A program made the translations under genes and the position numbers. 64,000 nucleotides of DNA from Parcubacteria group bacterium Gr01-1014_17 (lineage in GTDB: Bacteria > Patescibacteriota > Minisyncoccia > Phycocordibacterales > UBA10002). Where the stretch lies: NCBI GenBank assembly GCA_007376285.1, contig VMFZ01000005.1, positions 699 through 64,698 on the forward strand, written 5' to 3'. Shown here one piece after another: positions 10,644 through 38,015 of this stretch; within the stretch, counting starts at the first letter, position 1; every line of letters starts with the position of its first letter. A model generated the notes under the pieces. The model did not search any database. It was not told the DNA's origin and was given only the letters and a program-made list of their open reading frames with translations.

Positions 10644-10709
10644 GATGCAGATAGATTGAAAAGTCGCCTCATCGGCGACTCGCCGAAGAGGCGAGAAAGG
10701 TCTTTGATT

Positions 10710-11384: not shown

Positions 11385-11398
11385 GATTCTCTTTCACA

Positions 11399-11432: not shown

Positions 11433-11457
11433 ATGTTTTCTGCTATTATGAAAAACC

Positions 11458-12198: not shown

Positions 12199-12228
12199 GG
12201 TTTGTAATGGTAATATATCAACGGCACT

Positions 12229-18413: not shown

Positions 18414-18415
18414 CT

Positions 18416-19297: not shown

Positions 19298-19306
19298 TTT
19301 AGCGGT

Positions 19307-21459: not shown

Positions 21460-21468
21460 GTTTCTATT

Positions 21469-21939: not shown

Positions 21940-22901
21940 TGCCTGTTCGTTTTGGAATCATCGGGTGTTCGCGGGTGGCGCAGCGGCGATTTTTGCCCGC
22001 CCTCGCCGCTTCGGAACGCGCGGCGCTTTCTTTTGTCGGCAGTCGAGATGCGGAGAAGGCAAAAAAATATGCAAATGAATTTCACGCTGCGCATTTTGGA
22101 AATTACGAAGATGTTCTCGCGAGCAAGAATGTTGATGCTGTGTACATTTCAACTCCGCCAACTTTGCATTACGAGTGGATTGTGAAATCCGCGCGCGCTG
22201 GTAAGCATATTATCTGCGAGAAGCCCGCGTGTATGGACTATGAATCGGCGCACCGAGCAGTTCAAATATGCAGAGAAGCGGGCGTGCGCCTTATGGAAAA
22301 TTACGCCTTTTTATACCACCCACAACACGCCGCCGCGCGCGATATTATGTCAGAAATCGGAAGCATAAAACGAATAAGCGCGCGCTATCTTTATCCGTTT
22401 CCGCATGGAGGAGATATCCGATTTAATCCTGCATTGGGCGGCGGCGTGTTCCACGATTCGTTTGGATATCCGCTAGCGCTCGCACGATTTTACTTCGGAC
22501 AATTTCCGGAATCAATATCATGCGTGCAAACAATGGACGCGCATCGCGGTATTGATACTGCAGCGGAAATTGTTTTACATTTCTCACGAAATCGCGCGCT
22601 TGATGGAAAGGTGCAAATGGGAAGTGCCGAATACGCATCGTCGTATACTTTACAAGGAGATAGCGGAAGTGTGGAAATAGTGCGTGCATTTGCCGTTGAT
22701 GCCGATAAACCCGCGGAAATCTTGCGTACAATCAATGGCGAGATTGAAAAGATTCAGATACCACCAGCAAGCCAGTTTCAGCTCGCGCTTGACGATTTCT
22801 GCGATGTTGTAAGAGGGAAAACACAAAAGGATTTTGATGGGGAACTTATTGCACGCGCAAAAATTAAAGATGCCGCAGAGCAGTGTCTTATGAGAAAATA
22901 A
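21939..22901 (+). CDS. Gfo/Idh/MocA-family NAD(P)-dependent oxidoreductase
   Basis: VRFGIIGCSRVAQRRFLPAL...EKP motif region and a C-terminal alpha/beta domain. Confidence 0.65.
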   Translation: MPVRFGIIGCSRVAQRRFLPALAASERAALSFVGSRDAEKAKKYANEFHAAHFGNYEDVLASKNVDAVYISTPPTLHYEWIVKSARAGKHIICEKPACMDYESAHRAVQICREAGVRLMENYAFLYHPQHAAARDIMSEIGSIKRISARYLYPFPHGGDIRFNPALGGGVFHDSFGYPLALARFYFGQFPESISCVQTMDAHRGIDTAAEIVLHFSRNRALDGKVQMGSAEYASSYTLQGDSGSVEIVRAFAVDADKPAEILRTINGEIEKIQIPPASQFQLALDDFCDVVRGKTQKDFDGELIARAKIKDAAEQCLMRK

Positions 22902-23868
22902 TTTGCGAGCCGGGTGCATTTATTTTTACCGGCAGAATATCTTTTTTAGGAAAGGTCTTTGTAAGTTTCGCGCGCGCGTACGGCGGAGCGAAAAAAAGAA
23001 CATATCCTCCTCCGCCCGCGCCAAGTAGCTTACCACCCCATGCACCAGCCTCTAATCCTTTTTGATATAGACTATCTATGGTCGGATTGGACACTCCTCC
23101 GTCAAGCGTGCGTTTTATTTTCCACGCATCGTGGAGCTGTTCTCCAAATAGTTGGAGCGGCTTATTTTTTGTCAGAATGTCATATCCTCTGTACGCCATT
23201 TCTTTGAGGGTGCGTAGCGCATCGGTATTTTGGTCTATGCGTTTTATTTGGTGTGCGGTTACAGCAGATGCTCTTCGCATAATGCCAGTATAGACGAGAA
23301 AAAGATGACTCTCAAAATCAGCAAGCCGTTTGTGAGAGATGGATACGGGGCGCACTAGGAAATCTTTTTCTGTTTTGAATTCAATCAAATTGAAACCTCC
23401 ATACGCCGCGGTAACTTGATCCTGACAACCAACTTTATCCTTTACTTTGTGTTTTTCAATAAAGATTGCCTCGCGTGCCAGTTTTTCCGCCGTTACTATT
23501 TTTTTATTAAAACAGTGTAGAGCATGAAGTACCGATACAGTTAGCGAGGAAGATGAGCCGAGCCCACTGAATGCGTGAGTATCAAAAATACTATGTAGCG
23601 CGACATCTTTTGCAACCCCCGTGTGTTTAAGGCACTCTCTAAACACATTATGTTGTATATGATGCACTGTTTTTGCCAATTCCACACTGCTGTATGAAAG
23701 GCGGATTGCATAATCAAACATATGGCTCAAAAATCGGTTTGCGGTAACATACGCATATTTATCAATCGCCGTTGCCAACACAGCGCCCCCTTCCTTAAGA
23801 AAGTATTCGGGATGGTCGGTACCTCCGCCGAAAAAACTTATGCGGAGTGGAGTGCGCGCAATAATCAT
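22888..23868 (-). CDS. hddA: GHMP kinase, D-glycero-alpha-D-manno-heptose 7-phosphate kinase (HddA)-like
   Basis: MIIARTPLRISFFGGGTDHPEYF N-terminus is the HddA hallmark. GHMP motif SGLGSSSS. Sits in an operon with an HddC-like nucleotidyltransferase. Confidence 0.65.
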   Translation of the reverse strand: MIIARTPLRISFFGGGTDHPEYFLKEGGAVLATAIDKYAYVTANRFLSHMFDYAIRLSYSSVELAKTVHHIQHNVFRECLKHTGVAKDVALHSIFDTHAFSGLGSSSSLTVSVLHALHCFNKKIVTAEKLAREAIFIEKHKVKDKVGCQDQVTAAYGGFNLIEFKTEKDFLVRPVSISHKRLADFESHLFLVYTGIMRRASAVTAHQIKRIDQNTDALRTLKEMAYRGYDILTKNKPLQLFGEQLHDAWKIKRTLDGGVSNPTIDSLYQKGLEAGAWGGKLLGAGGGGYVLFFAPPYARAKLTKTFPKKDILPVKINAPGSQIIFS

Positions 23869-23875
23869 GATTCGA

Positions 23876-24595
23876 TTACATTACCACAGGGTACATCTTA
23901 CGCGCTATTCTGTAACGTTCGGGTACCCCGATGTCAATAAGAATCTCGTCTGTTCTGAAACCATAACAATGTCGACGGAAAAGGGTGGGGAAGAATTCAT
24001 CTTCAAGTGAAAACGCGCTTTTATCCGGAAATAGTTTCGCGATTTTGCGGTTGACGATGTAGATTCCGGCATTCAAATGAAATGTTCCGTTGGCATCTGC
24101 GTCGGTTTTTTTTCTCCAGCCAGTAACACGCTGCGTCTCATCCATCTCCACTATGTTTCCACTGTCCCCTCTGTACGATTTGGTAAGCGCCATCGATAAG
24201 ATTCCTTCTTTTTCATTGTGGAAAGCACATAGTGCGTTAAAGTCAGGACTGAAGACCATATCTCCATTCATAATGAAAAATCGCTCTGCGCCGTTCGTAA
24301 AATGGAGCGCCCGTTTAACAGCGCCGCCAGTGCCAAGCGGTTCATCTTCTTCGGAAAATACGACGCGGTAGCCGCGCTCTTCACAATGTGCTTTCACCTG
24401 TTCTTTGAGATATCCGACGCTTAAAATGATTTTCTCAAAACCCGCTTTCGTAAGCATTGTCATAATCATATCCAAAAGCGTTTTATCGCCCATCGAGGCG
24501 AGTATTTTTGGCAGGTCAACAAAAACACTGCGCAAACGCGTACCAAGACCGCCGCACAAAACAATGATAGGTATATTTCGCAGTTCGTTAGACAT
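23876..24595 (-). CDS. hddC: D-glycero-alpha-D-manno-heptose 1-phosphate guanylyltransferase (HddC)-like nucleotidyltransferase
   Basis: IPIIVLCGGLGTRLRSV...LPKILASMGDKTLLD...LGTGGAV NTP-transferase motifs. Adjacent to the HddA-like kinase. Confidence 0.55.
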   Translation of the reverse strand: MSNELRNIPIIVLCGGLGTRLRSVFVDLPKILASMGDKTLLDMIMTMLTKAGFEKIILSVGYLKEQVKAHCEERGYRVVFSEEDEPLGTGGAVKRALHFTNGAERFFIMNGDMVFSPDFNALCAFHNEKEGILSMALTKSYRGDSGNIVEMDETQRVTGWRKKTDADANGTFHLNAGIYIVNRKIAKLFPDKSAFSLEDEFFPTLFRRHCYGFRTDEILIDIGVPERYRIARKMYPVVM

Positions 24596-25526
24596 TTGAA
24601 TACTGGTTGTTTTTGAGAATCGTAAAACCTTTGATGAGTTCCTCTATACCACGGTCCAGATTCCATTCTGTGTTGAATCCGGCGGCGGCAATGCGCGCAT
24701 TGGAGACGATATAATCGCGCTTATCTGGGTCTTCGCCAATTGGAGCTTCAATATAGGTAAACTTTGGCAGATGTTTTTTAATAATCGCACACAACTCAAG
24801 TTTTGAGAGGTTGGCGTCATCAAGCCCCACATTGTAGGGCCTGCCTCTCATTTTTTGAAAGTTTTCTATGCCGTGGATAAATACTCGCACGACATCCTGG
24901 ATATGTATGTAGTTTCGCTTGAAGTGCCATTCAAAAATAAGCATTGCGCGATCATTCACGGCGCGGTACACGAAATCGTTGACCAGCAAATCCAATCGCA
25001 TTCTTGGCGACATTCCAAATACGGTCGCAAGGCGGAAGCTTAACCCATTTTCGCGCGCCAACGCCACTTTCTCGGCCTTTACTTTGGTGACACCGTAGAA
25101 AGAGATTGGGCGGAGTGGCGACTTTTCAGTACAGAACTTATTTTTTTCGCCAATGCCATATCCGCTGTTGGTAATGGGGATGAGCATGCGCTGGCTCTTG
25201 CTCATAAGTTTTCCGAGCAGGGCGACTGCCCCAAAGTTGGTTGTTTCCGCCGCGATTTTGTTTTGCTCGCAAAGCGGCGCTCCCACGAGCGCCGCGAGCG
25301 GAATAATAATGTCGGCTTTTTCTACGAGTGGCTTGATTGTATTTTTGTCGCGGCAGTCACCACGCACAATGTTGAATGTTTTATACTGGCAACAATCGGT
25401 CAAACTGTTCTGGCGGTACATAAAGTTGTCCAACACGGTAACCACATAACCACTTTCAAGAAGCGCCGGGGTCAATACCGAGCCGATGTACCCCGCGCCG
25501 CCGGTGATGAGTATTTTTTGGATCAT
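24588..25526 (-). CDS. NAD-dependent epimerase/dehydratase (extended SDR; candidate NDP-heptose modifying enzyme)
   Basis: KILITGGAGYIGS and YGVTKVKAEK. First gene of the minus-strand hddA/hddC operon. Confidence 0.6.
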   Translation of the reverse strand: MIQKILITGGAGYIGSVLTPALLESGYVVTVLDNFMYRQNSLTDCCQYKTFNIVRGDCRDKNTIKPLVEKADIIIPLAALVGAPLCEQNKIAAETTNFGAVALLGKLMSKSQRMLIPITNSGYGIGEKNKFCTEKSPLRPISFYGVTKVKAEKVALARENGLSFRLATVFGMSPRMRLDLLVNDFVYRAVNDRAMLIFEWHFKRNYIHIQDVVRVFIHGIENFQKMRGRPYNVGLDDANLSKLELCAIIKKHLPKFTYIEAPIGEDPDKRDYIVSNARIAAAGFNTEWNLDRGIEELIKGFTILKNNQYSNV

Positions 25527-25632: not shown

Positions 25633-26559
25633 ATGAACATGGACAAAAGAAGCATCGCGCGCGAGGTTATTCGATTGCGCGTACAGCAAATGGTAGTCAA
25701 TGAATGGTATAAAGCAGGAAGATTTAAAATCCCCATTCACCTTGGCTTCGGTCATGAGGCGCTCGCGGTTGCGGTAAGTGCCGTGATGGGGCGCGGCGAC
25801 TGGTTGTTTTTGACACACAGAAATATCGCCTATAATCTTGGTCGGGAAAAATCTCTCAAACCATTTCTTGATGAATATTCGCTTAAACCGACCGGTGTTG
25901 CTGGCGGGCGATTCGGCTCCATGAATTTGATACATCCTTCGCGCGGCATTCTGTATACATCAAGCATTTTAGCAAATCAGTTTCCAGTGGCGGTTGGGTC
26001 CGCGTTTGGCTTCACGGTTTCCGATGCAAACGGTATTGCTATTGTGTGCGGTGGCGATGGAGCAATTGAAGAAGGCGCATTTTACGAAAGCGTACTTATG
26101 GCAGCAAGCATCAAAGCTCCCATACTTTTTTTAATTGAAAATAACGAGTGGTCAATGCATACCTCCATTCGCGAACGCCGTGTGGATATTGACCTTAAAA
26201 AACTAGCGAGTTCGCTAGGAGTGCTGTATGTGTCCTTGAAAGGTAATAATGTGTTCGCCTATATTCAGGCGCTTGCCCGCGCTCGAAAACAAATTCTTAC
26301 ATCGCGCGCGCCGCTCTGTATTGAGGTAAAGGTAAATACACTGGGCGATTGGTATGATATGAAAAATCCGCTCTATCCTCAAGGTAAATTTGTCAAATAT
26401 CATACAGGAGCTTCGCCAAGCGTTATGCTCTCAGAAGAAGTGGTGCTCCAAAAAAATGCTGACGATCCGCTTTTTGTTTTAGGAAAACTTATTTCAGAGG
26501 CATCAGTAAAAAAAATGGCCGTTCAAGAATTGGCACACATAAGAAAAGAAATGATATGA
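25633..26559 (+). CDS. Thiamine-diphosphate-dependent E1 component, alpha subunit (pyruvate/acetoin dehydrogenase-like)
   Basis: GGRFGSMNL and GDGAIEEGAFYESVLMAASIKAPILFLIENNEWSMHTS match the E1 alpha TPP motif (GDG...NN), not transketolase. Confidence 0.7.
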   Translation: MNMDKRSIAREVIRLRVQQMVVNEWYKAGRFKIPIHLGFGHEALAVAVSAVMGRGDWLFLTHRNIAYNLGREKSLKPFLDEYSLKPTGVAGGRFGSMNLIHPSRGILYTSSILANQFPVAVGSAFGFTVSDANGIAIVCGGDGAIEEGAFYESVLMAASIKAPILFLIENNEWSMHTSIRERRVDIDLKKLASSLGVLYVSLKGNNVFAYIQALARARKQILTSRAPLCIEVKVNTLGDWYDMKNPLYPQGKFVKYHTGASPSVMLSEEVVLQKNADDPLFVLGKLISEASVKKMAVQELAHIRKEMI

Positions 26560-27491
26560 CTTACCTTTCATTTTTAAATTGTATTTTAAGAAAAGAGATT
26601 GCCACTCATACGAATCTCGTCGTGTTCGGGCAAAATATTTCCGCCGGTTCATACCTTGGTGGGCTCACCGCCGGTCTTTCTGTACCGCCAGAATCACGCA
26701 TTATCAATACCATTAATGCAGAGAATTCTCTCGTTGGTTTCGGTTTCGGGTTGGCGCTTTCAGGCACCAATGCAATATTTTTTATGCGGCAGATTGATTT
26801 TTTACTTCTCACAACTGACCAACTAGTAAATACCTACAATATCATCCGCAATAATCCCGCAGGACTTCCTGGCTCTTTCACCATTATGACTACTGTTATT
26901 GACCAAGGGTATGAAGGTCCGCAGTCAAGCTCCAACAATTTGGGGGACTTTTGTTCGCTTGCCCGCATTGACGCGTTTACCGTCACGAACAAAAGAGATA
27001 TTGAAGCGATTATTCCCGCACAACTGGTGTCGCCTGGTTTTCGAATTATCGCGGCGAGTCCGCGGTTGTACAAAACCGACCTGCTTGAACCGCCACTTGC
27101 CTATCGTTCTCCAACCGGCAACCTTTTTCAGTATCAGGAAGGGAATGATACGACGATTATCTGTTTTAATTTATCTTTTCCATATGGGTACGCACTTGCT
27201 CAAGCGATGCAGACAAAAGGGCTCCACCCGTCGCTTTTCAGCGTAAATATTCCCGTGCCGATTAAGTGGAATGTTATTTTAGAAAGTGTGAAAAAAACAA
27301 AAAAGCTCGTTATATTTGACGACAGTAAAAGTATGAATTGTTCGTATTACGCGCTTTTGGCGGAGGCGCGACTCCGTTTCAATTTGCAAAAAGAAATTAT
27401 CATTACCCGGCATTTAGGGAGTGATTGGCTTACGCCGAATTCGGACCAACTTGAAATTGATTACCAAAAGGTTATTAAAGATATCGTATGA
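26556..27491 (+). CDS. E1 component beta subunit (transketolase-like pyrimidine-binding and C-terminal domains)
   Basis: VVFGQNI...GFGFGLALSG pattern of E1 beta. Translationally coupled to the alpha subunit (ATGA overlap). Confidence 0.6.
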   Translation: MTYLSFLNCILRKEIATHTNLVVFGQNISAGSYLGGLTAGLSVPPESRIINTINAENSLVGFGFGLALSGTNAIFFMRQIDFLLLTTDQLVNTYNIIRNNPAGLPGSFTIMTTVIDQGYEGPQSSSNNLGDFCSLARIDAFTVTNKRDIEAIIPAQLVSPGFRIIAASPRLYKTDLLEPPLAYRSPTGNLFQYQEGNDTTIICFNLSFPYGYALAQAMQTKGLHPSLFSVNIPVPIKWNVILESVKKTKKLVIFDDSKSMNCSYYALLAEARLRFNLQKEIIITRHLGSDWLTPNSDQLEIDYQKVIKDIV

Positions 27492-28252
27492 ATTTTGAAT
27501 ATAACGAGATAAAAGGAAAACGCGTGCTGGTTACAGGCGCGAGTTCAGGAATTGGAGCCGCGATTGCAAGACAATTCGGTGCACGCGGCGCGCGCGTTGG
27601 AATCCATTACGGTAAAAACCACATCGCGGCTCTTGCTGTGCTTCGTATGATTCGAAAATCCGGTGGCGAGGGTAAACTTTTTGGCGGAGATCTTCGTATA
27701 GAAAAAGTCGCACAAAATCTCATGAGAGATTTTGTGCGCGCATTTGGCGGCATTGATGTTTTGGTGAATAACGCAGGTGCGCTCTATACTTACCGTCATT
27801 TTAGCCAATTAGATGGAAAAATGTTTGATGATATGTTTGTGTTACATTCAAAAGCGCCGTTTTTGCTTATGCAAGCCGCTTTTGTTCCTATGCAAAAGCA
27901 ACGCTTTGGGCGAATCATCAACATAAGCACCAACGCCATTACATACGCCGGTTCGCACACGCTGAACTATTGTGCCTCAAAAGCCGCGCTTGAGGCGATA
28001 TCTGCCGGTTTTGCGCGCGAGGGGGCGAAGGATAACATATTGGTAAATGTAGTGCGCTGTGGATTGATTGATACGCCAATGCATCGTAAGACTCAGGAGT
28101 ACGGAGAAACACGCTTTCAAGAAAGAATAAAAATGATTCCGCTTGGCCATGCGGGCAGTCCCGATGACATTGCGCAAATGGTTCTCTTTTTGGCGTCAGC
28201 GTGCGGCGATTTTATTACCAACGAGATATTTACTATTGCCGGAGGAGAATGA
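27488..28252 (+). CDS. Short-chain dehydrogenase/reductase (SDR)
   Basis: VLVTGASSGIGAAIA...NNAG...YCASKAALE classical SDR motifs. Confidence 0.75.
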   Translation: MNFEYNEIKGKRVLVTGASSGIGAAIARQFGARGARVGIHYGKNHIAALAVLRMIRKSGGEGKLFGGDLRIEKVAQNLMRDFVRAFGGIDVLVNNAGALYTYRHFSQLDGKMFDDMFVLHSKAPFLLMQAAFVPMQKQRFGRIINISTNAITYAGSHTLNYCASKAALEAISAGFAREGAKDNILVNVVRCGLIDTPMHRKTQEYGETRFQERIKMIPLGHAGSPDDIAQMVLFLASACGDFITNEIFTIAGGE

Positions 28253-28254
28253 AC

Positions 28255-28292
28255 AACCCCCACACTTGTCCGACAAGTGTGGGGGTATTGTG
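28255..28292. terminator. Bidirectional terminator hairpin (15 bp perfect stem ACCCCCACACTTGTC / GACAAGTGTGGGGGT)
   Basis: Perfect inverted repeat between convergent gene ends (SDR + strand, radical SAM - strand), followed by a T-rich run on the + strand. Confidence 0.6.
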
Positions 28293-29231
28293 TTATTTGA
28301 AGTACTTTCCCGCTTCCGTGTAGGGAACGGTGCAGTGCTTGCACATAGGCAAGTTATTTTTCTTGCCATCCAGATGCAGTTTTCGTACGGTCCCAAACTT
28401 TGGGGAATTAAATATCGCGATGGTGTTATCGTTTGCGACATTACCAAAGTTGTATTTTCCCTCGCTCCAATCTTCACAGCAGTAAGTTACTTGGCCATCG
28501 GCAAGTATATACATCACCTGGAACGGGAAAGGACAGGCGGTTTTTTCAAGAGTGTCATCTCGGTTGATTCCAACTTCAAGCGAACCCCATGAATGGGCCG
28601 GCAGGACTCCAAGGAAGTCACGCCGCGCGCGGTCTATGCGATGTTCCCAGAACTCAAGAAACGCTTTTTCTTCATGCGCATTGGTTTCTTGTCTGACAAA
28701 CCGTACAAGAAATCGCGTCTGGTAATTGCCTTCATTTCGCAAGGCAATCATCTGTAGGCAGTTCGCGACCGTCTTTTCCAAACGGCCGTTGACTCGAATC
28801 GCTTCATAAATCGGCGCGGTTGCGCCGTCAATAGAAAAGATAATCGTGTCAATACCGCTTTCAAGCATTTCTTCCTGTTTCTCCCGCGACAGGTTAAACA
28901 GCGCCATATTGCTGGAGAAGCCGATGTTTCTGAACCCGTGTTTTTTTGCATACCGAATTCTTCTCGACATCAGTTGGTCAAGAAACGGCTCTCCCAAGCC
29001 AAAGAGGTCCATCATCTCAACCTCTCCATTATGTGGAGAAAGGTCGTTGATGATTTTCTCAAAAAGCTCCATCGTCATAATGCCACGGACTTTTTTTGTT
29101 GGCGTGCTTATTGGGCACATTGGGCATCGCAAGTTGCAAATGCCACCGATTGTTTCAATCGTTACTCTCCGCGGAATAATTTGTCCCTGCGGAGCTGAAG
29201 GGGGCGTAAATGCCCATGGTTTTTCTGTCAT
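28293..29231 (-). CDS. Radical SAM protein with C-terminal SPASM/twitch cysteine cluster
   Basis: CNLRCPMCP (CxxxCxxC) near the N-terminus. C-terminal CPFPF...YCCEDW...CKHC cluster. The start is placed at MTEKPW because the upstream gene stops at 29228. Confidence 0.65.
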   Translation of the reverse strand: MTEKPWAFTPPSAPQGQIIPRRVTIETIGGICNLRCPMCPISTPTKKVRGIMTMELFEKIINDLSPHNGEVEMMDLFGLGEPFLDQLMSRRIRYAKKHGFRNIGFSSNMALFNLSREKQEEMLESGIDTIIFSIDGATAPIYEAIRVNGRLEKTVANCLQMIALRNEGNYQTRFLVRFVRQETNAHEEKAFLEFWEHRIDRARRDFLGVLPAHSWGSLEVGINRDDTLEKTACPFPFQVMYILADGQVTYCCEDWSEGKYNFGNVANDNTIAIFNSPKFGTVRKLHLDGKKNNLPMCKHCTVPYTEAGKYFK

Positions 29232-29800
29232 AATACTCCTTTCGTTGTTCGGACAAATTCTTTCCATGTCCCGTAGTTTTTGTGAGTTTCAGATATAAGC
29301 GGCTTGACACAGTCGAGCGGCCATTTGATGTTCACATCAGAGTCATTCCATATGATTCCGGCGCTTAAGTCCTCACGAAACCGATTGTCGGCAAAAGCCA
29401 TAACTTCTGCGTTGTTGGTTATAGATAGACATCCGTGTGCAAAACCGCGCGGCACGAACAGTGCATTGTGTTTTTCTGCTGTTAAGTCAACGGCGAGCCA
29501 TTCGCCGAGAGTAGGGCTTTTTTTTCTGATGTCTATGACCGCCCAAAACATTCTGCCTCGCGTTGCTACCAGCATTTTCCCTTCCATTTCTGGCGGAAGT
29601 TGCACATGCATACCGCGCAAGACATTTTTGTGTTTTGAGTGTACCAGACTTATCTGTTTCCACTCCGGTATGCCCCCAATTTTCTTTTTGAGTTCTTTCT
29701 CATCAAAAAACCGAGTCAGGCAGCCCCTGTGGTCCGTTATATGCCAAGGGATAATCTCAACTACCCCCGCCAATTTTGTCGGACGGATTTCCAGTTCCAT
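29228..29800 (-). CDS. NDP-4-keto-6-deoxy-sugar 3,5-epimerase (RmlC/RfbC-like cupin)
   Basis: GVVEIIPWHITDHRGCLTRFF...RGMHVQ...FVPRGFAHG motifs of the dTDP-4-dehydrorhamnose 3,5-epimerase family. Confidence 0.7.
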   Translation of the reverse strand: MELEIRPTKLAGVVEIIPWHITDHRGCLTRFFDEKELKKKIGGIPEWKQISLVHSKHKNVLRGMHVQLPPEMEGKMLVATRGRMFWAVIDIRKKSPTLGEWLAVDLTAEKHNALFVPRGFAHGCLSITNNAEVMAFADNRFREDLSAGIIWNDSDVNIKWPLDCVKPLISETHKNYGTWKEFVRTTKGVL

Positions 29801-29884
29801 TTTCTTTCCTTTTTTTAAAGACCAGTCTATCGCGAATTCTATGTCATTTAGTTCGTCTTGTCAAAAAAAACAAGAAACCGGTAT

Positions 29885-30727
29885 TCATCTTTTCTGAATC
29901 GCGAGAGCCATTACCGCATAATGATTCCGCAGAGTTTTTATCCGCCTTATGCTCAATGCTTCAAAGCCGCATTCTTTAAGAATCCGTGTAAGCGTTTCCT
30001 GGTCAAACATCCACAAGTGGCACGCATTAAAAATATCATCATCTTTTGGTTTGAGGCGAGACGCCAGTGCATCAGGCACTTCAACATAAAGAAACGAATT
30101 TGCATCCATATCTTTGCGAACGCTTTTCAGAAGCGACCTGGGATTCGCCATATGTTCCAAGACATAAACAAGGGAAATAAGATTGAATTTCCTATGAAAT
30201 CGGTTGGGCTTGTAAAACTTCTGTATCAGCGGAATTTTCAGTTTCTTTTTTACAAAGTCGTTGTTTTTGGCAGGGTCAATAATATAAGAACGCCAAAGGC
30301 GGTCTTGAAACTCATAAGCGAAAATTGCCGCGCCGCCTCCTATATCAAGCGCCGAGAACGGCGGCGCGGGCTTTTTAATAATGCCGTCTTCCCACACCCT
30401 TTCGATCGTTTCTTTTATCCAGCAAACTCTCTTCTTTGTTTCAGATTGATGTTCCGGCAGAGCTGTTATTTTGTTGAAGATTTCTTCTGCGGTTTCTTTT
30501 CTCCAATTGGCATTCGTGTCTCTATAGGCCGTTTCGTATATTGTGTGTATGACTTTCGGCGGTCTGGAATAGATGGAATAAAAGAAACCGCATTTTGAAC
30601 ACCGAACCCACTTTCGGAAATAATTTTTTGCGGTTACTCTCACTGCCGCTTCATATCGGTCCGGTTCTTTGTATGAGAAGATTACTTTATGAGAAGACGA
30701 CTTGCATAAAAGGCACGGCGATGGCAT
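29885..30727 (-). CDS. Class I SAM-dependent methyltransferase with N-terminal zinc-ribbon
   Basis: CLLC...CSKC cysteine pairs, then LDIGGGAAIF...LVYVLEHM MT motifs. Confidence 0.55.
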   Translation of the reverse strand: MPSPCLLCKSSSHKVIFSYKEPDRYEAAVRVTAKNYFRKWVRCSKCGFFYSIYSRPPKVIHTIYETAYRDTNANWRKETAEEIFNKITALPEHQSETKKRVCWIKETIERVWEDGIIKKPAPPFSALDIGGGAAIFAYEFQDRLWRSYIIDPAKNNDFVKKKLKIPLIQKFYKPNRFHRKFNLISLVYVLEHMANPRSLLKSVRKDMDANSFLYVEVPDALASRLKPKDDDIFNACHLWMFDQETLTRILKECGFEALSIRRIKTLRNHYAVMALAIQKR

Positions 30728-30793
30728 ATAGTGAAAGATACTATTCCAACTGCGTGTTGGAGTCAATTTTGTTTCGTGCTATTCTTTTTTTCT

Positions 30794-31690
30794 ATGATAC
30801 CTCACACAGAGCGTCGACACCCTTTGGTCAGTATCGGCGTTCCCACCTATAATCGAGCCGACCTTTTGCAACTCACACTCGATTCGCTTCTTGCGCAGAC
30901 CGACAAAAATGTAGAAATTATTATCTCGGACAACGCGTCAACCGACGGCACTGAAGCACTCTGCCGCGCATATGCAGATAGAGAAAATCGAATTTTCTAC
31001 TTTCGACAAGAAAAAAACAGAGGTCAAATGAACAATTATTCGTTCCTTTTGCAGAAAGCGCGCGGGAAGTATTTTATGTGGGCGCAAGACGACGATTCTA
31101 TAGACCAAAACTATGTGGAAGTTCTTACTGATGTGTTAGAAAAGAATCCTGAATACTCGGTTGCCTTGAGCCATTATTACGAAAAACGAGTTGGCGCACT
31201 GACTCCCTTGCCCATCCGCGCTATCACCCACGACTACACGCATAAAAGTTATCGCGAACTGTACGAGCGTTGCCTGTATGGGAAAATCAGCGCGCTTCTG
31301 CTCTACGGTTTATATCGGACCGCGTGTATAAAAGTGCTCTACGCCCGACAGCTTCCCCTCACCTTTAACAATCTTTTGTTGTGGATGTCGGAACTCGTGC
31401 TTGCGGTAAAGGTGTATTCGGTGCCCCTGCTTTTATATACGCATACGCAAGATGTCAGGAGCCACGAAGCGCGACAACCAGACGGTCCGCTTACGCTCGC
31501 AGAGAAAAGGCCTTTTGCAATTACACACTATGTCGCGACCGGCCCCTTTTGGCTTCTTACTTCGCGCGCGATTCCCTTACATAGGAAATTATTGATTTTC
31601 GGCCCGTGGATTCGCCGCGCGTGGAAATATAAACGCAAAATATTTAATGAATGGCGCTGCGCATTTCTCAATATGTTTCGGCGCGTATGA
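30794..31690 (+). CDS. GT2-family glycosyltransferase
   Basis: VSIGVPTYNRADLL...IISDNASTDGT...DDD typical GT-A motifs. The track start at 30731 overlaps the divergent gene, so ATG 30794 is preferred. Confidence 0.65.
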   Translation: MIPHTERRHPLVSIGVPTYNRADLLQLTLDSLLAQTDKNVEIIISDNASTDGTEALCRAYADRENRIFYFRQEKNRGQMNNYSFLLQKARGKYFMWAQDDDSIDQNYVEVLTDVLEKNPEYSVALSHYYEKRVGALTPLPIRAITHDYTHKSYRELYERCLYGKISALLLYGLYRTACIKVLYARQLPLTFNNLLLWMSELVLAVKVYSVPLLLYTHTQDVRSHEARQPDGPLTLAEKRPFAITHYVATGPFWLLTSRAIPLHRKLLIFGPWIRRAWKYKRKIFNEWRCAFLNMFRRV

Positions 31691-31693: not shown

Positions 31694-33595
31694 TTATCGC
31701 TTGAGGAGTTGTATCAACGCATCCAGAGCCGCGTTCAGTGATCCAACAACTTGAGAAATTGCCGCGAGATTTTCTTTTCGTCTTTGTAGAGAGGTTGTGG
31801 TAGAAGTGTTTGTAGAAGGAGCAGAATTTACACCCGTAAGCGTGAACGGTAATGTGGCAGCGATTGATTGGCATCTCACAGATGCACTCGGCATATAAGT
31901 GCCGTAACATACGCGAGCACTATAATTTCCAGGCAAAGACGAGCGGGTGTCAAAACCGTCAATACCGGACGACGCATTATGACTGCCGATATTTACTGCT
32001 GTCCCATCGGGTTTTACTATTTCCGAGTGTACCGTAATAACCGATGGACAAGTGTAAGAAACATATATCACATCTCCGATTGCAAATGTAGTTTTATTAT
32101 TCGAAAGCGTAAACGTGAGATTAGAACATGTGTTCGCCGCAGTCGTAAAAGTATGTTCGGGCGGATAGCCGGTACTGAGTACCGCTGAATTTCCCTTTGC
32201 ATCAAAGTTATAAACTCTAAATGTGTAGAGCGTACCGCTTTTTAGATTTGAGAGGGTATAAGAATGCGGGGTCACATATGCCGCCCAAGAATTATCGTAC
32301 GGGGTAATCGCCCAATCCGCCACACTTCCATAGTTCACATATCCAAGGGCCGGTTCATCGGTAGTCCAAGTGATGACCGCTGAATTTGCGGTAATTGAAG
32401 AAGCCAACACTGATGACACGACTGGGGGCGTTATATCCGGTTTCGGAATAGTGAAATAATTGTCACTGTCGTCATACACTTCCGGACTGTCCCAATTAAA
32501 GACCCTTATTTTATAGTCGCTTCCAAAGCCGATTGCATTGTAGTATGGAGACGCCACCCTATCTCCCGAAGACGGTTCTCTCTCTACTGATGGCGGAAGC
32601 GACAAAGTTGTAGAATTAGTGGTAATTGGAGCGCTGTTGCTGTACACAACCTGTGAACCTTTTAAAATCTTGAATCCAACCCGACTCACTCCCTTTAACA
32701 AATAATTGATACCCTGATTAGAAAAATACATATCCCATGTTTCTCCCCCGTTTGGTGATGTGATGGTTATGGGAACGGTATTCTGCAGTGGCGGTGGTGT
32801 GGAGGTAGTATTAGATGCAGTTGTAATGGATGAGGAGATTGTTGCCGTTGTTGTTGTAGAAGGAGTAGAAACTGTAATCGTTGTTTGACTTGTCCCCGAA
32901 GAGGTACCGTTGACAGGTGCGACAGTCGTTGTCACCTCAACAATGGTAGTCGTTGCGCTTGTGGTAGTAGTAGAGGGTGCAAAAGGCGTGGTCGTTGTTG
33001 CAATCGGCAATTGTATTTCAGATGTTGTTGCGAGTTTCTTTTGAATGCCGGGCACCATCGTGAGCCCGGGCGGCACAACATCTGACTTGCCGGAGCCGCT
33101 CGTCAGCAAGTCGTTTATTTTGGTGAGCGTTTTCGGCCCTATATTTCCGACTGCTTCAATGTTGTGGCGCTCTTGGAACTTGCGGACTGCGGCGGCTGTG
33201 AGAGACCCGTAGAAGCCGGTTTGGAGTTTCTCAGGATAAAGGTCTGGAAATTGTGATAGAAACTTTTGAAGTTCACGCACATCCTCTCCACGCGAGCCGA
33301 TGGAAAGGGTGCGTGTGAAAATTGGTGCATTAATTTCTTGCGCTGCAGGTTGCCAGATAAGCGCACTAGGTTCTTCTTTTTCGCGCCGGAGCGCGTCACG
33401 CGCTTCAGTGAGCCGTACTTGAAGCACGACGATTTGGATTTCAATTTCTTGAATGGTACGCTCGAGCCCGCCGAGCGTATCTCCGCCCGCCGTCGTTTGG
33501 GCGTGCGCGCCAAAACCATACAAGAAAGCAAAGAGAAACACTCCTATTGCAAGAATCTCGGTACTTCTATGTTGCTTACGAGCGAACAATGACAT
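31694..33595 (-). CDS. Cell-surface protein: N-terminal signal/anchor, coiled-coil, peptidoglycan-binding domain, ~70 aa Thr/Ser-rich linker, then beta-rich (FN3-like) domains
   Basis: Hydrophobic N-terminus LAIGVFLFAFLYGFGAHA. PG_binding_1-like GSRGEDVRELQKFLS...GPKTLTKI. A TTTTPFAPSTTTTSATTTIVEVTTTVAPVNGTSSGTSQTTITVSTPSTTTTATISSSITTASNTTSTP stretch. C-terminal repeats with YTF/VY beta patterns. Confidence 0.5.
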   Translation of the reverse strand: MSLFARKQHRSTEILAIGVFLFAFLYGFGAHAQTTAGGDTLGGLERTIQEIEIQIVVLQVRLTEARDALRREKEEPSALIWQPAAQEINAPIFTRTLSIGSRGEDVRELQKFLSQFPDLYPEKLQTGFYGSLTAAAVRKFQERHNIEAVGNIGPKTLTKINDLLTSGSGKSDVVPPGLTMVPGIQKKLATTSEIQLPIATTTTPFAPSTTTTSATTTIVEVTTTVAPVNGTSSGTSQTTITVSTPSTTTTATISSSITTASNTTSTPPPLQNTVPITITSPNGGETWDMYFSNQGINYLLKGVSRVGFKILKGSQVVYSNSAPITTNSTTLSLPPSVEREPSSGDRVASPYYNAIGFGSDYKIRVFNWDSPEVYDDSDNYFTIPKPDITPPVVSSVLASSITANSAVITWTTDEPALGYVNYGSVADWAITPYDNSWAAYVTPHSYTLSNLKSGTLYTFRVYNFDAKGNSAVLSTGYPPEHTFTTAANTCSNLTFTLSNNKTTFAIGDVIYVSYTCPSVITVHSEIVKPDGTAVNIGSHNASSGIDGFDTRSSLPGNYSARVCYGTYMPSASVRCQSIAATLPFTLTGVNSAPSTNTSTTTSLQRRKENLAAISQVVGSLNAALDALIQLLKR

Positions 33596-33667
33596 TGTCT
33601 GTAGTGTACGATATTATCACTCAAACACAAGCCAATTATCCACATTGGCTTACTGTGTTATATTGTC

Positions 33668-35269
33668 TTGGAATATATGCTTCACAACTTCATTGTTTTC
33701 TTTGAGACCATTCTCTTTTTGTACATTTCGTATGTTGCAGGAAGGGCTTTCTTGCCGCGGCTCGGCGTCAAAGCGGTTTCCGGAATAGTGGTTGCGGTGC
33801 AGGCGGTTCTGCTCGGTTTGGGTATGTTCGCGCTCGCTGGTTTGGCGTTCGGACTCTTGGGGATATTCAATGCGGTAACGCTCTGGGCGTTTACGGCGAT
33901 GCTTGTGTTTGTCGCGCGAAAACAGATTCGGGCACACTTCTTATCGCTTACCATGGAAAACACGCGGCGCGTTTTCCATGCATTCCTCGGTTTGTTTAGG
34001 GAGAATACTTTTTTAAAAATACTGATTGCGGTATGGTTGGTTGCTAATTTTTCTCTCGCGTTCGTGCCGCTTACCGCGCACGACACCATAGATTACCATC
34101 TGCCCATTGTGCTGGACATTGTGGAAAAGGGGCGGACGGACTTTACGAGCGCGATTGAGCACTATAGTTTTACGCCCGTTCTCGCGGAGATTTTATACGC
34201 TGTGCCCGCCGTGCTGTTCAACGAAAAAACTGCTCCATTCGTCTTTCAGCCGCTACAGTATATGACGCTCCCGCTTTTTCTCGCGCTCGCGTACGGGTTT
34301 TTGCGGGATAAGCTCAAACGGCGCTGGCTCGCGCCGGCGGCGCTTCTCGCGGTGTTGGGCATGATGGCCCTCCAAAGAGAGGTTTTACACATGGGGTATG
34401 TGGACACCTTTGCGTTTTTATACGGATTTGCGGCGCTTTTCCCGCTTTTGGAATATGCGTCACAACAAAACGGAAACGCAAAACCGCATTTTTCGGAATT
34501 GATGTTTTCCGCCGTGATGCTCGGGATTTCGCTCGGTATGAAATATTTCGGTTTTTTCTTCGGCGTATTCGCCATTGTGTTTCTGGTCGTCGCATGGAGG
34601 CGTTTCTCTATAACGGCGCATGAAATGGGGCGAATGCTTTTTATATTCTGCGCGATTGTCGCGGCTATTTCCTTATTTTGGTACGCCAAGAATTGGTTCT
34701 GGTTCGACAATCCGCTGTACCCGATGTTTTCATCCGACCCTGCGATTGCGATAACTCAGCAAGGTATTAAGTCGTTTCTGCTTGACCGAACATTTTTGAA
34801 TTTTTTTATTTTCCCCTTTGCGCTTTTCGGTCAATGGTTTTTGAATCCCGCGGTAGAGAGTTCAAGCAATCTGGTGATTTTTGCGTATTTTGTATTGCTG
34901 TATCTGCTTGTCGCTCCGCGGATTTTCACGCGCGAGAAGTTTACGCGCGCGGAAGTATTGCTGTTTGTGTTCGTGCATGGCTATCTCGCATTCCACTTCG
35001 TACTCTCGCATTACCTCCGCTACCTCTTGCCGTCGGTGATGATTTTACCTGTGCTCCTTGCGCTTCTCGCGGACAGGCTCTTCTCTACCGCGGAACGCGC
35101 GCTTTCCGCGCTGCGGTTTTCTGTACTTCACAAAACCGCTCACCTCATTGTGGCGCTCGCTATTTTGGTTGTGTTTCTCGGAAACTTCCATTATTTCCAA
35201 ATTCGTTTTTCCTATATTTTAGGTATTTATAATGAACAAGAATATGTACGAAAAATCGGAAGCCAATAA
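33668..35269 (+). CDS. GT-C-fold integral membrane glycosyltransferase (ArnT/PMT/GT39-83-like)
   Basis: 533 aa with about 13 predicted TM helices and no soluble catalytic domain. Immediately followed by a GtrB-like GT2. Confidence 0.5.
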   Translation: MEYMLHNFIVFFETILFLYISYVAGRAFLPRLGVKAVSGIVVAVQAVLLGLGMFALAGLAFGLLGIFNAVTLWAFTAMLVFVARKQIRAHFLSLTMENTRRVFHAFLGLFRENTFLKILIAVWLVANFSLAFVPLTAHDTIDYHLPIVLDIVEKGRTDFTSAIEHYSFTPVLAEILYAVPAVLFNEKTAPFVFQPLQYMTLPLFLALAYGFLRDKLKRRWLAPAALLAVLGMMALQREVLHMGYVDTFAFLYGFAALFPLLEYASQQNGNAKPHFSELMFSAVMLGISLGMKYFGFFFGVFAIVFLVVAWRRFSITAHEMGRMLFIFCAIVAAISLFWYAKNWFWFDNPLYPMFSSDPAIAITQQGIKSFLLDRTFLNFFIFPFALFGQWFLNPAVESSSNLVIFAYFVLLYLLVAPRIFTREKFTRAEVLLFVFVHGYLAFHFVLSHYLRYLLPSVMILPVLLALLADRLFSTAERALSALRFSVLHKTAHLIVALAILVVFLGNFHYFQIRFSYILGIYNEQEYVRKIGSQ

Positions 35270-36032
35270 AAGAAACAGCGTCGTGGTGATTATGCCTGCG
35301 TATAATGCGGCTCGGACTTTGGAGAAAACATATAGGGCGATTCCGTATGGCGCGGTGGATGAAATTATTCTGGTAGACGATGCAAGCCGCGATGATACTC
35401 TCGCGGTCGCACACACGCTCCCTATCCGTGTGTTCAAGCACAAGCGCAATTACGGATACGGCGCGAACCAAAAGACCTGCTACACCGAAGCGCTTAAAAC
35501 AGACAACGATATTATCGTTATGCTTCATCCCGATTATCAGTACGACCCGTCGCTTTTACCGACGCTTATTGCGCCCATTGCGGAGGGCCGCTCGGACATC
35601 GTGCTGGGCTCACGGCTTATGGGGAAGAGCCCTGTTGCGCAGGGAATGCCGTGGTGGAAATACCTCGGCAATCGACTCCTCACTCGTTTAGAAAATATCG
35701 TGTTTGGTTTGCATTTATCCGAATATCATACCGGTTATCGCGCGTACGCGCGCCGCGTGCTTGAGGAGGTGCATTATGAAATGAATTCGGATAAGTTTGT
35801 GTTTGACCAAGAGTTTATCGCGCAGGCGGTGTGCAACAAGTACCGGATTGTGGAAGTGCCCGTGCCGACAAAATATTTTCCGGAAGCATCGTCTGCGAGT
35901 TTCCGCGCCAGCGTCGTGTACGGTTTTTCTATTTTGTTTCTGTTGGCGCGCTACCTTCTCCATCGGAATGGGTGGGTGTGTTCTATGCAGTTTGAGAGCT
36001 TGCCGAGGCGATATAAAACGGCGGTTCGTTAA
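35232..36032 (+). CDS. GT2 polyprenyl-phosphate sugar synthase (GtrB/Dpm1-like) with C-terminal TM helix
   Basis: VVIMPAYNAARTL...VDDASRDDT...YGYGANQK. C-terminal FSILFLLARYLL hydrophobic segment. Confidence 0.7.
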   Translation: MNKNMYEKSEANKRNSVVVIMPAYNAARTLEKTYRAIPYGAVDEIILVDDASRDDTLAVAHTLPIRVFKHKRNYGYGANQKTCYTEALKTDNDIIVMLHPDYQYDPSLLPTLIAPIAEGRSDIVLGSRLMGKSPVAQGMPWWKYLGNRLLTRLENIVFGLHLSEYHTGYRAYARRVLEEVHYEMNSDKFVFDQEFIAQAVCNKYRIVEVPVPTKYFPEASSASFRASVVYGFSILFLLARYLLHRNGWVCSMQFESLPRRYKTAVR

Positions 36033-37643: not shown

Positions 37644-37655
37644 AAGGAAAAATAA

Positions 37656-37997: not shown

Positions 37998-38015
37998 CTT
38001 CTTGTTGTGTTCTCG

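What the first reader, a model, noticed from the sequence alone, without database searches (positions are those of the whole stretch)
28293..30727. Radical SAM/SPASM enzyme in an operon with an RmlC-like 3,5-epimerase and a zinc-ribbon methyltransferase
SPASM-domain radical SAM enzymes in sugar loci are uncommon. Candidate roles include radical-mediated epimerisation, C-methylation or deoxygenation of an NDP-sugar. The minus-strand operon (methyltransferase, 3,5-epimerase, radical SAM) suggests a multistep tailoring cassette acting on a 6-deoxy sugar.
Basis: partly seen in the sequence, partly recalled or inferred. Interest (0 to 1): 0.55.

Follow-up and report, generated by a model that had tools for sequence, protein, structure and literature searches.

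The report
Twitch radical SAM enzyme, heptose-tailoring cluster
The three genes are real, but they are part of a larger, widely conserved and uncharacterised gene set that appears to remodel a GDP-activated seven-carbon sugar, using a one-auxiliary-cluster radical SAM enzyme paired with an RmlC-like protein that has lost its epimerase residues.

Summary
On the minus strand lie a zinc-ribbon methyltransferase (29885-30727), an RmlC-fold cupin (29228-29800) and a radical SAM enzyme (28293-29231, CxxxCxxC intact).

The interpretation needs three corrections.
1. The C-terminal domain is a BtrN-type "twitch" domain, not a full SPASM domain. It has four invariant Cys, enough for one auxiliary cluster.
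2. The cupin lacks the RmlC catalytic Tyr133 and Asp170, so it is unlikely to be a canonical 3,5-epimerase.
3. The substrate is probably a GDP-heptose 4-keto intermediate, not a classical 6-deoxyhexose. Adjacent genes are HddA-like, HddC-like and a protein about 60% identical to PDB 6VO6.

A convergent E1alpha/E1beta/SDR operon, the kind known to add two-carbon branches to keto-sugars, shares a bidirectional terminator with the rSAM gene.

The module recurs in about 25 loci from more than ten phyla. Natural cupin::rSAM and GT2::rSAM fusions exist. The family has about 2,758 50%-identity clusters. No peptide-maturase signature or precursor gene is present.

Best guess: a BtrN-like two-electron oxidation of a sugar CH-OH. 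That chemistry is inferred, not shown. I found no characterised homologue. Interest is moderate: an attractive enzymology target, not a new kind of system.

The parts
28293..29231 (-). Twitch-domain radical SAM enzyme, 312 aa. The ORF extends to an upstream ATG at 29267.
   Evidence: Pfam Radical_SAM and SPASM. CxxxCxxC at C32/C36/C39. Four invariant C-terminal Cys: C233/C251/C297/C300. Best PDB sequence and fold match is BtrN. AF2 model pLDDT 91.9. Shine-Dalgarno sequence plus ATGA overlap at 29231.
29228..29800 (-). RmlC-fold cupin, 190 aa, lacking the catalytic Tyr and Asp of RmlC ('Tyr-less cupin').
   Evidence: PF00908 E = 1e-43. TIGR01221 128 bits, below the 155.75 cut-off. His63 and Lys73 equivalents are kept; Tyr133 is Ala and Asp170 is His. 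Found fused to the rSAM in P0015 and P0018.
29885..30727 (-). Class I SAM methyltransferase with an N-terminal 4-Cys zinc ribbon, 280 aa from the ATG. The ORF extends to a TTG at 30766.
   Evidence: Methyltransf_23 E = 2.3e-16. CxxC...CxxC invariant in 10 orthologues and a DIGGG SAM motif. Always directly upstream of the Tyr-less cupin where present. No PDB relative.
28256..28286 (.). Perfect 14-bp hairpin, a likely bidirectional terminator between the convergent SDR gene and the rSAM gene.
   Evidence: Terminator scan, found on both strands.
29836..29864 (-). Promoter-like site (TTGACA-17-TAGAAT, 11 of 12 matches) upstream of the cupin gene.
   Evidence: Consensus scan only.
25633..26559 (+). 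TPP-dependent E1 alpha-like subunit.
   Evidence: E1_dh E = 2.9e-30. PDH E1 alpha E = 8e-41, below cut-off. A GDG...NN TPP motif is visible in the sequence. Co-occurs with the rSAM in 18 of 26 loci.
26556..27491 (+). E1 beta / transketolase-like subunit, overlapping E1 alpha by 4 nt (coordinates).
   Evidence: Weak Transket_pyr and Transketolase_C hits. PDH E1 beta E = 4.6e-12. Conserved with E1 alpha in related loci.
27488..28252 (+). FabG-like short-chain reductase, overlapping E1 beta by 4 nt (coordinates).
   Evidence: adh_short_C2 E = 8e-44. 43-56% identical orthologues sit next to E1 pairs in related loci.
24588..25526 (-). Extended SDR closely related to PDB 6VO6/6VO8, which I recall as C. 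jejuni Cj1427, the GDP-heptose C4-dehydrogenase.
   Evidence: PDB 6VO6 E = 5.8e-117, about 60% identity over the full length. It has TNSGYG in place of the dehydratase TDE motif (sequence). Cj1427 function is described in PMC10680097.
23876..24595 (-). HddC-like sugar-1-phosphate nucleotidyltransferase.
   Evidence: Best NCBIfam hit is HddC, E = 2.8e-40, below cut-off.
22888..23868 (-). HddA-like GHMP sugar kinase.
   Evidence: Best NCBIfam hit is HddA, E = 2.5e-41, below cut-off. Orthologues are present in 20 of 26 related loci.
30731..31690 (+). Family 2 glycosyltransferase, divergent from the methyltransferase gene.
   Evidence: Glycos_transf_2 E = 6e-32. Orthologues of 38-83% identity in related Patescibacteria loci. 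GT2::rSAM fusions exist in the wider family.

Best explanation
The gene at 28293-29231 encodes a twitch-type radical SAM enzyme with one SAM-cleaving cluster and one fully Cys-ligated auxiliary [4Fe-4S] cluster. It belongs to a large uncharacterised family dedicated to glycan biosynthesis.

In this window it works in a GDP-heptose tailoring pathway. HddA-like and HddC-like enzymes make the GDP-heptose. The 6VO6-like (Cj1427-like) SDR makes the 4-keto sugar. The E1alpha/E1beta pair plus SDR add and reduce a two-carbon branch from pyruvate. The zinc-ribbon methyltransferase and the Tyr-less RmlC-fold cupin act on an enolisable keto intermediate. The adjacent GT2 then transfers the product.

The radical SAM enzyme is translationally coupled to the cupin here and fused to it in some relatives. 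It most likely abstracts a hydrogen from a sugar CH-OH and passes the second electron to the auxiliary cluster. That is a BtrN-like two-electron oxidation that creates an additional carbonyl, possibly on the heptose-specific C6/C7 side chain, for further epimerisation, methylation, amination or branching.

Shown: domain architecture, conserved residues, synteny, fusions.
Inferred: substrate, site of attack, the oxidation chemistry, and the order of steps.
For: - CxxxCxxC plus exactly four further invariant Cys in 45 homologues. These align to the four BtrN auxiliary-cluster ligands.
- BtrN is the top hit by sequence (E = 5.5e-7) and by fold (E = 8.5e-13, TM 0.76 on target).
- BtrN's 4-Cys auxiliary cluster is associated with two-electron oxidation, in contrast to MoaA's 3-Cys open-site cluster (PMC9012708).
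- There is no additional invariant Cys that could act as a hydrogen donor. Carbohydrate rSAM epimerases use such a Cys: NeoN Cys249, and HygY becomes a dehydrogenase when one Cys is mutated (PMC10991966 and its reference list).
- Context: RmlC-like in 23 of 26 loci, HddA-like in 20 of 26, E1alpha/beta in 18 of 26, across more than ten phyla.
- Cupin::rSAM fusions and GT2::rSAM fusions.
- ATGA coupling to the cupin gene.
- 6VO6-like SDR at about 60% identity.
- E1 pairs are known to add two-carbon branches to NDP-4-keto sugars (PMC4802897).
- Several invariant Arg residues (R146, R165, R177, R283) are compatible with a diphosphate-bearing substrate.
Against: - There is no biochemical data and no characterised close homologue. 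Identity to BtrN is only about 16%.
- The 4-keto group is already supplied by SDR enzymes in every locus (6VO6-like or Gmd-like), so the need for a second oxidation is conjecture.
- Twitch enzymes also catalyse redox-neutral reactions (MoaA). Foldseek also returns DesII, BlsE and EpeE with similar scores.
- GT2 fusions could mean the substrate is a lipid-linked or polymer-bound sugar rather than a GDP-sugar.
- GmhA and GmhB were not found in the window. The HddA and HddC hits are below the NCBIfam cut-offs.
- That 6VO6 is Cj1427 rests on my recollection. I could not confirm it in the held literature.
Confidence: 0.4

Rival explanations
1. Radical epimerase. The enzyme abstracts a hydrogen from an unactivated sugar carbon and returns a hydrogen to the opposite face, as in NeoN, HygY or AviX12. 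This would replace the epimerase activity that the Tyr-less cupin has lost.
For: Twitch-type carbohydrate epimerases are known (HygY title and NeoN in PMC10991966). The partner cupin lacks the RmlC proton-donor Tyr. EpeE is among the fold hits. Tandem paralogues could each invert a different centre.
Against: No invariant Cys exists beyond the seven cluster ligands. The extra Cys252 of the window protein is S, N, H or F in homologues. In known cases, loss of the donor Cys gives a dehydrogenase instead.
Confidence: 0.17
2. Redox-neutral radical dehydratase or deoxygenase, like AprD4 or DesII. Hydrogen abstraction next to a vicinal OH is followed by elimination, giving a deoxy-keto sugar. Examples would be 3-deoxygenation or 6,7-diol dehydration, supplying the carbonyl attacked by the E1 pair.
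For: DesII, the only NDP-sugar radical SAM enzyme with a solved structure, is among the fold hits. The window has no PLP/PMP C3-dehydratase. Known 4-C-(1-hydroxyethyl) sugars such as yersiniose are 3-deoxy (own knowledge). A FabG-like reductase is adjacent.
Against: A fully ligated auxiliary cluster is not needed for redox-neutral chemistry. By my recollection, DesII carries no auxiliary cluster; I did not check this here. Some related loci carry DegT-type enzymes that could perform the deoxygenation.
Confidence: 0.15
3. Radical C-C bond formation or rearrangement on the branched sugar. An example is joining the heptose side chain to the two-carbon branch to give a carbocyclic or chain-extended C9 sugar of the caryose type.
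For: Heptose plus a two-carbon TPP-derived unit gives nine carbons. Twitch and SPASM enzymes often form C-C bonds (MoaA, PqqE, SuiB). B12-rSAM enzymes and paralogous rSAM arrays accompany the family.
Against: The rSAM also occurs in loci without any E1 pair (L009, L016, L017, L022), so its reaction cannot depend on the branch. No product structure is known for any host. No literature link was found.
Confidence: 0.08
4. The enzyme acts after glycosyl transfer, on a polyprenyl-phosphate-linked or polymer-bound sugar rather than on the GDP-sugar.
For: GT2::rSAM fusions exist in the wider family (P0150, P0220, P0259). A GT2 gene sits beside the operon and in related loci.
Against: Fusion and translational coupling to an NDP-sugar-binding RmlC fold. 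The genes are embedded among nucleotide-sugar enzymes rather than polymerisation genes.
Confidence: 0.15
5. Peptide or protein maturase (RiPP, sulfatase or metalloenzyme maturase) that happens to lie in a sugar locus.
For: The Pfam SPASM hit. The top NCBIfam hits are 'metalloenzyme maturase' models. SuiB, CteB and anSME appear among the fold hits.
Against: All those NCBIfam scores are 5-10 fold below their cut-offs and cover only the radical SAM core. There are only four auxiliary Cys. No RRE domain or precursor ORF is present. Sugar-gene synteny is conserved across phyla.
Confidence: 0.02

Closest known systems
BtrN (2-deoxy-scyllo-inosamine dehydrogenase, butirosin pathway; PDB 4M7T)
   Same: Compact radical SAM core plus a twitch domain. 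The four auxiliary-cluster Cys align (C169/C187/C232/C235 to C233/C251/C297/C300). A C-x-E-D motif follows the second ligand. The substrate is carbohydrate-like. It is the best sequence and fold match.
   Different: About 16% identity. The window protein is about 60 residues longer. The context is GDP-heptose and polysaccharide genes, not aminoglycoside genes. It is paired or fused with an RmlC-fold protein. Many invariant Arg residues suggest a phosphorylated substrate.
HygY, NeoN and AviX12 (radical SAM carbohydrate epimerases)
   Same: Radical SAM enzymes, twitch-type in the case of HygY, that modify sugars at unactivated carbons (AviX12 from own knowledge).
   Different: Those epimerases rely on a hydrogen-donor Cys. 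This family has no invariant Cys beyond the cluster ligands. Direct sequence comparison was not possible with the tools.
DesII (TDP-4-amino-4,6-dideoxyglucose deaminase / TDP-quinovose dehydrogenase; PDB 8HZV)
   Same: A radical SAM enzyme acting directly on an NDP-sugar. It is a fold hit at E = 3e-9.
   Different: DesII is larger (about 470 aa) and, by my recollection, has no twitch auxiliary cluster. Similarity is much lower than to BtrN.
E1alpha/E1beta two-carbon branching systems (AviB1/AviB2 for eurekanate; Plm8/Plm9 for paulomycose)
   Same: A pair of PDH-E1-like TPP subunits encoded within a deoxysugar cluster. They are proposed or shown genetically to add a pyruvate-derived two-carbon chain at C4 of an NDP-4-keto sugar (PMC4802897).
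   Different: Those are actinomycete antibiotic pathways built on dTDP-hexoses. They are not reported with a twitch rSAM plus Tyr-less cupin pair. Here the scaffold is probably GDP-heptose for a cell-surface glycan.
Campylobacter jejuni capsular heptose pathway (HddA, HddC, Cj1427, Cj1430, Cj1428)
   Same: HddA-like and HddC-like activation genes. An SDR about 60% identical to PDB 6VO6, which I recall as Cj1427, the alpha-ketoglutarate-dependent GDP-heptose C4-dehydrogenase. An RmlC-fold partner.
   Different: The C. jejuni pathway uses canonical His/Tyr cupin epimerases and a C4-reductase. It has no radical SAM enzyme and no TPP enzyme. The window cupin matches Cj1430-type structures only at E = 1e-9 to 1e-10.
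RmlC (dTDP-4-dehydrorhamnose 3,5-epimerase)
   Same: Same fold. The His63 and Lys73 equivalents and the substrate-binding core are conserved.
   Different: Tyr133 is replaced by Ala, Ile, Val or Leu, and Asp170 by His. In six related loci His63 itself is lost. The score is below the TIGR01221 cut-off.

Membership tests
Radical SAM superfamily (PF04055) | CxxxCxxC motif ligating the SAM-binding [4Fe-4S] cluster; partial TIM-barrel core. | tested here: met
   C32-x3-C36-x2-C39 is invariant in 45 homologues. Pfam 41.9 bits against a 29.5 cut-off. The AF2 model matches radical SAM structures.
SPASM subclass (two auxiliary clusters) | Seven or eight Cys motif including CX2CX5CX3C, binding two auxiliary clusters (PMC9012708; motif from own knowledge). 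| tested here: not met
   Only four invariant C-terminal Cys. The terminal motif is CxxC, not CX2CX5CX3C. The Pfam SPASM model still matches because twitch is a truncated SPASM domain.
Twitch subclass (BtrN-like, one auxiliary cluster) | A truncated SPASM domain binding a single auxiliary [4Fe-4S] cluster, ligated by four Cys in BtrN. | tested here: met
   The four invariant Cys align to BtrN C169/C187/C232/C235. BtrN is the top fold hit. NCBIfam N_Twi_rSAM matches the C-terminus at E = 8e-16, but at 58 bits is below its 170-bit family cut-off. Actual cluster content is not testable here.
BtrN orthologue (DOIA dehydrogenase) | Close sequence identity and a butirosin or 2-deoxystreptamine gene context. 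| tested here: not met
   About 16% identity. The neighbours are GDP-heptose, TPP and GT genes.
Radical SAM carbohydrate or peptide epimerases (NeoN, HygY, EpeE type) | A conserved non-ligand Cys that donates the hydrogen atom. | tested here: not met
   There is no invariant or near-invariant Cys other than the seven ligands. Cys252 is variable.
RmlC, dTDP-4-dehydrorhamnose 3,5-epimerase (TIGR01221) | Catalytic His63/Asp170 dyad, Lys73 and the proton-donor Tyr133 (S. enterica numbering; own knowledge); score above the equivalog cut-off. | tested here: not met
   His and Lys are present. Tyr133 is Ala and Asp170 is His. 128.1 bits against a 155.75 cut-off.
RiPP or protein-maturase rSAM families (sactisynthases, anSME, PqqE, MftC and others) | Score above the family cut-off; RRE or peptide-binding domain; a precursor or target gene nearby. 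| tested here: not met
   Best maturase scores are 22-77 bits against cut-offs of 340-650. There is no room for a precursor ORF (gaps of 40 and 84 nt). Synteny is with sugar genes only.
E1alpha/E1beta sugar two-carbon branching enzymes (AviB1/B2, Plm8/9) | A paired PDH-E1-like alpha and beta subunit with a TPP motif, encoded in an NDP-keto-sugar cluster; pyruvate-dependent branch formation. | tested here: inconclusive
   The pair, the TPP GDG...NN motif and the sugar context are present. Sequence relatedness to AviB/Plm proteins and the activity could not be tested.
Cj1427-type GDP-heptose C4-dehydrogenase | High identity to Cj1427; tightly bound NADH recycled by alpha-ketoglutarate. | tested here: inconclusive
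   E = 5.8e-117 and about 60% identity to PDB 6VO6/6VO8. That this entry is Cj1427 is from memory and was not confirmed in the held papers. The cofactor behaviour is not testable.

The most novel reading that the evidence does not exclude
The twitch radical SAM enzyme and the catalytically degenerate RmlC-fold cupin form an obligate complex, covalently fused in some Parcubacteria. In this complex the cupin has been repurposed as the GDP-sugar-binding or enolising subunit, playing a role like that of the RRE domain in RiPP radical SAM enzymes. Together with the E1alpha/beta TPP pair they would build a previously undescribed branched or chain-extended (C9) heptose-derived sugar. That sugar would decorate the surfaces of Patescibacteria and many anaerobic phyla.
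Probability: 0.2. Interest if true: 0.75.

Novelty: new variant of a known kind. Interest (0 to 1): 0.55.

Why it matters
Radical SAM chemistry on nucleotide sugars is known from only a handful of enzymes, nearly all from antibiotic pathways.

This family has about 2,758 50%-identity clusters and occurs in more than ten phyla. It sits in cell-surface glycan loci, including those of Patescibacteria (CPR), whose envelope chemistry is essentially unknown.

The conserved combination is GDP-heptose activation, a TPP-dependent E1 pair, a Tyr-less RmlC fold, and one to four twitch rSAM paralogues, often with a B12-rSAM. It predicts an unknown class of heavily modified heptoses.

It also offers a clear, testable in vitro system, because the likely precursor, GDP-D-glycero-D-manno-heptose, and its 4-keto derivative are accessible enzymatically.

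The result also corrects database annotation. The deposited protein is N-terminally truncated and lacks its CxxxCxxC motif, and the cupin is annotated as a functional RmlC.

Tried and rejected
1. Full SPASM assignment: rejected on the Cys count.
2. Peptide maturase: rejected. NCBIfam scores are far below cut-offs, there is no precursor ORF, and the synteny is with sugar genes.
3. The rSAM as the enzyme that makes the 4-keto group for the E1 pair: rejected. A 6VO6-like SDR in the window, or a Gmd-like 4,6-dehydratase in related loci, is always present.
4. Canonical 3,5-epimerase role for the cupin: rejected on catalytic residues.
5. The methyltransferase as a TylC3/TcaB9-type C-methyltransferase: no significant similarity to the window's own Methyltransf_13/14 protein (E = 0.14) and no PDB relative. 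Left open.
6. Literature searches for a characterised homologue (radical SAM with heptose, GDP, branched sugar, twitch, epimerase) found nothing relevant.
7. Attempts to confirm that PDB 6VO6 is Cj1427 failed, through held papers, supplements and source names.
9. A homologue search with the cupin found no further fusion partners.
Full report
**Observation.** The three minus-strand ORFs are present as described.
- The 28293-29267 ORF carries Pfam Radical_SAM (41.9 bits) and SPASM (48 bits) and the motif C-NLR-C-PM-C.
- 29228-29800 is a PF00908 RmlC-fold protein (E = 1e-43).
- 29885-30766 is a Methyltransf_23 protein. Its N-terminal CxxC...CxxC is invariant in ten orthologues from several phyla.

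The rSAM most probably starts at the ATG at 29231. That codon is preceded by AAGGAG and overlaps the cupin stop codon as ATGA, so the two genes are translationally coupled. A perfect 14-bp hairpin at 28256-28286 lies between the rSAM stop and the stop of a convergent SDR gene. A promoter-like site lies upstream of the cupin gene.

**What the radical SAM protein is.** I aligned 45 homologues at 39-80% identity.
- The only invariant cysteines are C32/C36/C39 and C233/C251/C297/C300. The window protein's two other Cys (158 and 252) are not conserved.
- The four C-terminal Cys align one-to-one with the BtrN auxiliary-cluster ligands.
- BtrN is the best PDB match by sequence. It is also the best match by Foldseek using a confident AF2 model (pLDDT 91.9; E = 8.5e-13).
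- The domain is therefore a twitch domain with one auxiliary cluster, not a two-cluster SPASM domain (definition in PMC9012708).
- No NCBIfam family is reached. Peptide- and protein-maturase models score 22-77 bits against cut-offs of 340-650.

**Context in the window.** The flanking genes define a nucleotide-heptose pathway.
- There is an HddA-like GHMP kinase and an HddC-like nucleotidyltransferase. These are the best NCBIfam hits, though below cut-off.
- An SDR (24588-25526) is about 60% identical over its full length to PDB 6VO6/6VO8 (E = 5.8e-117).
[quoted passage not shown] I could not confirm the PDB assignment from the held papers.
- No 4,6-dehydratase, GmhA or GmhB was found in the window.
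- Convergent with the rSAM operon is a tightly overlapping E1alpha-E1beta-SDR operon. PDH-E1-like pairs of this kind (Plm8/9, AviB1/B2) attach a pyruvate-derived two-carbon chain to C4 of NDP-4-keto sugars (PMC4802897).

**Comparative genomics.** I compared loci carrying homologues at 39% identity or more, from Parcubacteria, Saccharibacteria, Desulfobacteraceae, Lentisphaerae, Verrucomicrobia, Omnitrophota, Nitrospirae, several Alphaproteobacteria (including Magnetospirillum sp. SS-4) and others. Using tblastn with the window proteins, the rSAM lies within 10 kb of:

| Neighbour | Non-redundant loci (of 26) |
|---|---|
| RmlC-fold gene | 23 |
| HddA-like kinase | 20 |
| E1alpha/beta pair | 18 |
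| Zinc-ribbon methyltransferase | 10 |

Several of the loci lacking these neighbours are short contigs. Further points:
- Many loci add GmhA, an HddC-GmhB fusion, a Gmd-like dehydratase, CmcI- or TylF-type methyltransferases, a TylC3-type C-methyltransferase and a B12-rSAM.
- Two Parcubacteria proteins (P0015, P0018) are natural cupin::rSAM fusions.
- The wider family contains GT2::rSAM and rSAM::rSAM fusions.
- Six loci hold tandem paralogues and two hold four copies.
- A profile search found 2,758 50%-identity clusters at E <= 1e-30.

**The cupin is not a canonical RmlC.** I compared it with S. enterica RmlC.
- It keeps the His63 and Lys73 equivalents.
- It has Ala at Tyr133 and His at Asp170, and scores below the TIGR01221 cut-off.
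- In every locus that has an E1 pair, the partner cupin likewise has a hydrophobic residue at Tyr133. Most also have His at Asp170 (L011 and L029 keep Asp; the alignment does not cover this position in L005/L015).
- Six of them have even lost His63.
- Canonical Tyr/Asp cupins occur in loci without E1, or as a second copy.
- The methyltransferase, where present, is always immediately upstream of this cupin.

**Mechanism.** Shown: architecture, ligand conservation, synteny, fusions. Inferred: everything about chemistry.
- A fully Cys-ligated twitch cluster, BtrN as nearest relative, and the absence of a conserved hydrogen-donor Cys all point the same way. Such a Cys is used by NeoN, and its loss turns HygY into a dehydrogenase.
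- I therefore favour a two-electron oxidation of a sugar CH-OH to a carbonyl. The auxiliary cluster would act as electron acceptor.
- SDR enzymes already supply the 4-keto group. The rSAM tracks heptose genes even where E1 is absent. So the target may be a heptose-specific position (C6/C7) or a centre that becomes inaccessible after C4 branching.
- The Tyr-less cupin may bind or enolise the keto-sugar without re-protonating it, handing the enolate to the methyltransferase or presenting the substrate to the rSAM and E1 enzymes.
- Epimerase, dehydratase, C-C-forming and post-transfer (lipid-linked substrate) alternatives remain open.

**Comparison and novelty.** This works like BtrN, HygY or DesII in being a radical SAM carbohydrate-tailoring enzyme. 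It is not a member of any characterised family. I found no paper linking a radical SAM enzyme to GDP-heptose tailoring. It is a new variant of a known kind. Interest is moderate (0.55), chiefly as a widespread, experimentally tractable, unassigned enzyme family in the glycan loci of poorly known phyla.

Noticed in passing
window 28293-29267; L034 447-620: The deposited NCBI protein for this gene (P0001, 'putative Fe-S oxidoreductase', 261 aa) starts at an internal Met and omits the CxxxCxxC motif. Several close homologues are called the same way. In the sibling MAG Gr01-1014_70, the conserved N-terminal coding sequence follows an in-frame TAG and has no ATG, GTG or TTG before the first cluster Cys. 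That suggests a non-canonical start, a sequencing error or gene decay.
   Followed up: partly
window 17313-22901: A second sugar-tailoring block. It holds a GalE-like SDR, an aldo-keto reductase, a TylC3-type C-methyltransferase (Methyltransf_13/14), a GDP-fucose-synthase-like SDR, a small cupin and a GFO/IDH/MocA oxidoreductase. The same block (C-MT, SDR, small RmlC/FdtA-like cupin) recurs in related loci.
   Followed up: partly
window 31694-36032: A 633-aa protein with a signal-like N-terminus, a peptidoglycan-binding domain, fn3-like domains and long Thr/Ser-rich tracts. It is followed by a 533-aa polytopic membrane protein with no Pfam hit and another GT2. This may be a surface glycoprotein and its glycosylation machinery, the likely destination of the modified sugar.
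   Followed up: no
window 7789-12945: An RpiB::cytidylyltransferase fusion, a PfkB kinase (together reminiscent of a split HldE), a class II aldolase, a transaldolase and a TylF-type O-methyltransferase. These may supply sedoheptulose-7-P or a second (ADP-) heptose route. No GmhA or GmhB was found in the 64 kb.
   Followed up: partly
L026 and L027 (four copies each); L011, L014, L018, L021, L023, L024 (two copies): Tandem arrays of paralogous twitch rSAM genes within single sugar loci, often next to a B12-binding radical SAM gene. Double-rSAM single polypeptides also exist (P0166, P0250, P0256).
   Followed up: partly
L012, L013, L014, L019, L025, L028 (cupin genes): In these loci the E1-associated RmlC-fold protein has lost even the catalytic His63 (replaced by Tyr, Phe, Gln or Ala). 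This suggests a non-catalytic binding or scaffolding role for this cupin subfamily.
   Followed up: partly
window 24588-25526: The 6VO6-like SDR belongs to an unusually conserved and abundant family. All 8,000 scored candidates reached E <= 1e-60, and the best 120 are 73-87% identical, the named ones coming from Parcubacteria and Verrucomicrobia. This contrasts with the much more divergent neighbouring genes.
   Followed up: no
window 36001-38000: A local GC dip to 0.396, against about 0.46-0.50 elsewhere. It includes a 263-aa ORF with no Pfam match.
   Followed up: no
L006, L021 (record titles): Two loci carrying near-identical Patescibacteria-type gene sets are labelled 'uncultured Methanosarcinales archaeon' MAGs. 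L006 is 76-84% identical to the window in all four genes, which suggests mis-binning.
   Followed up: no
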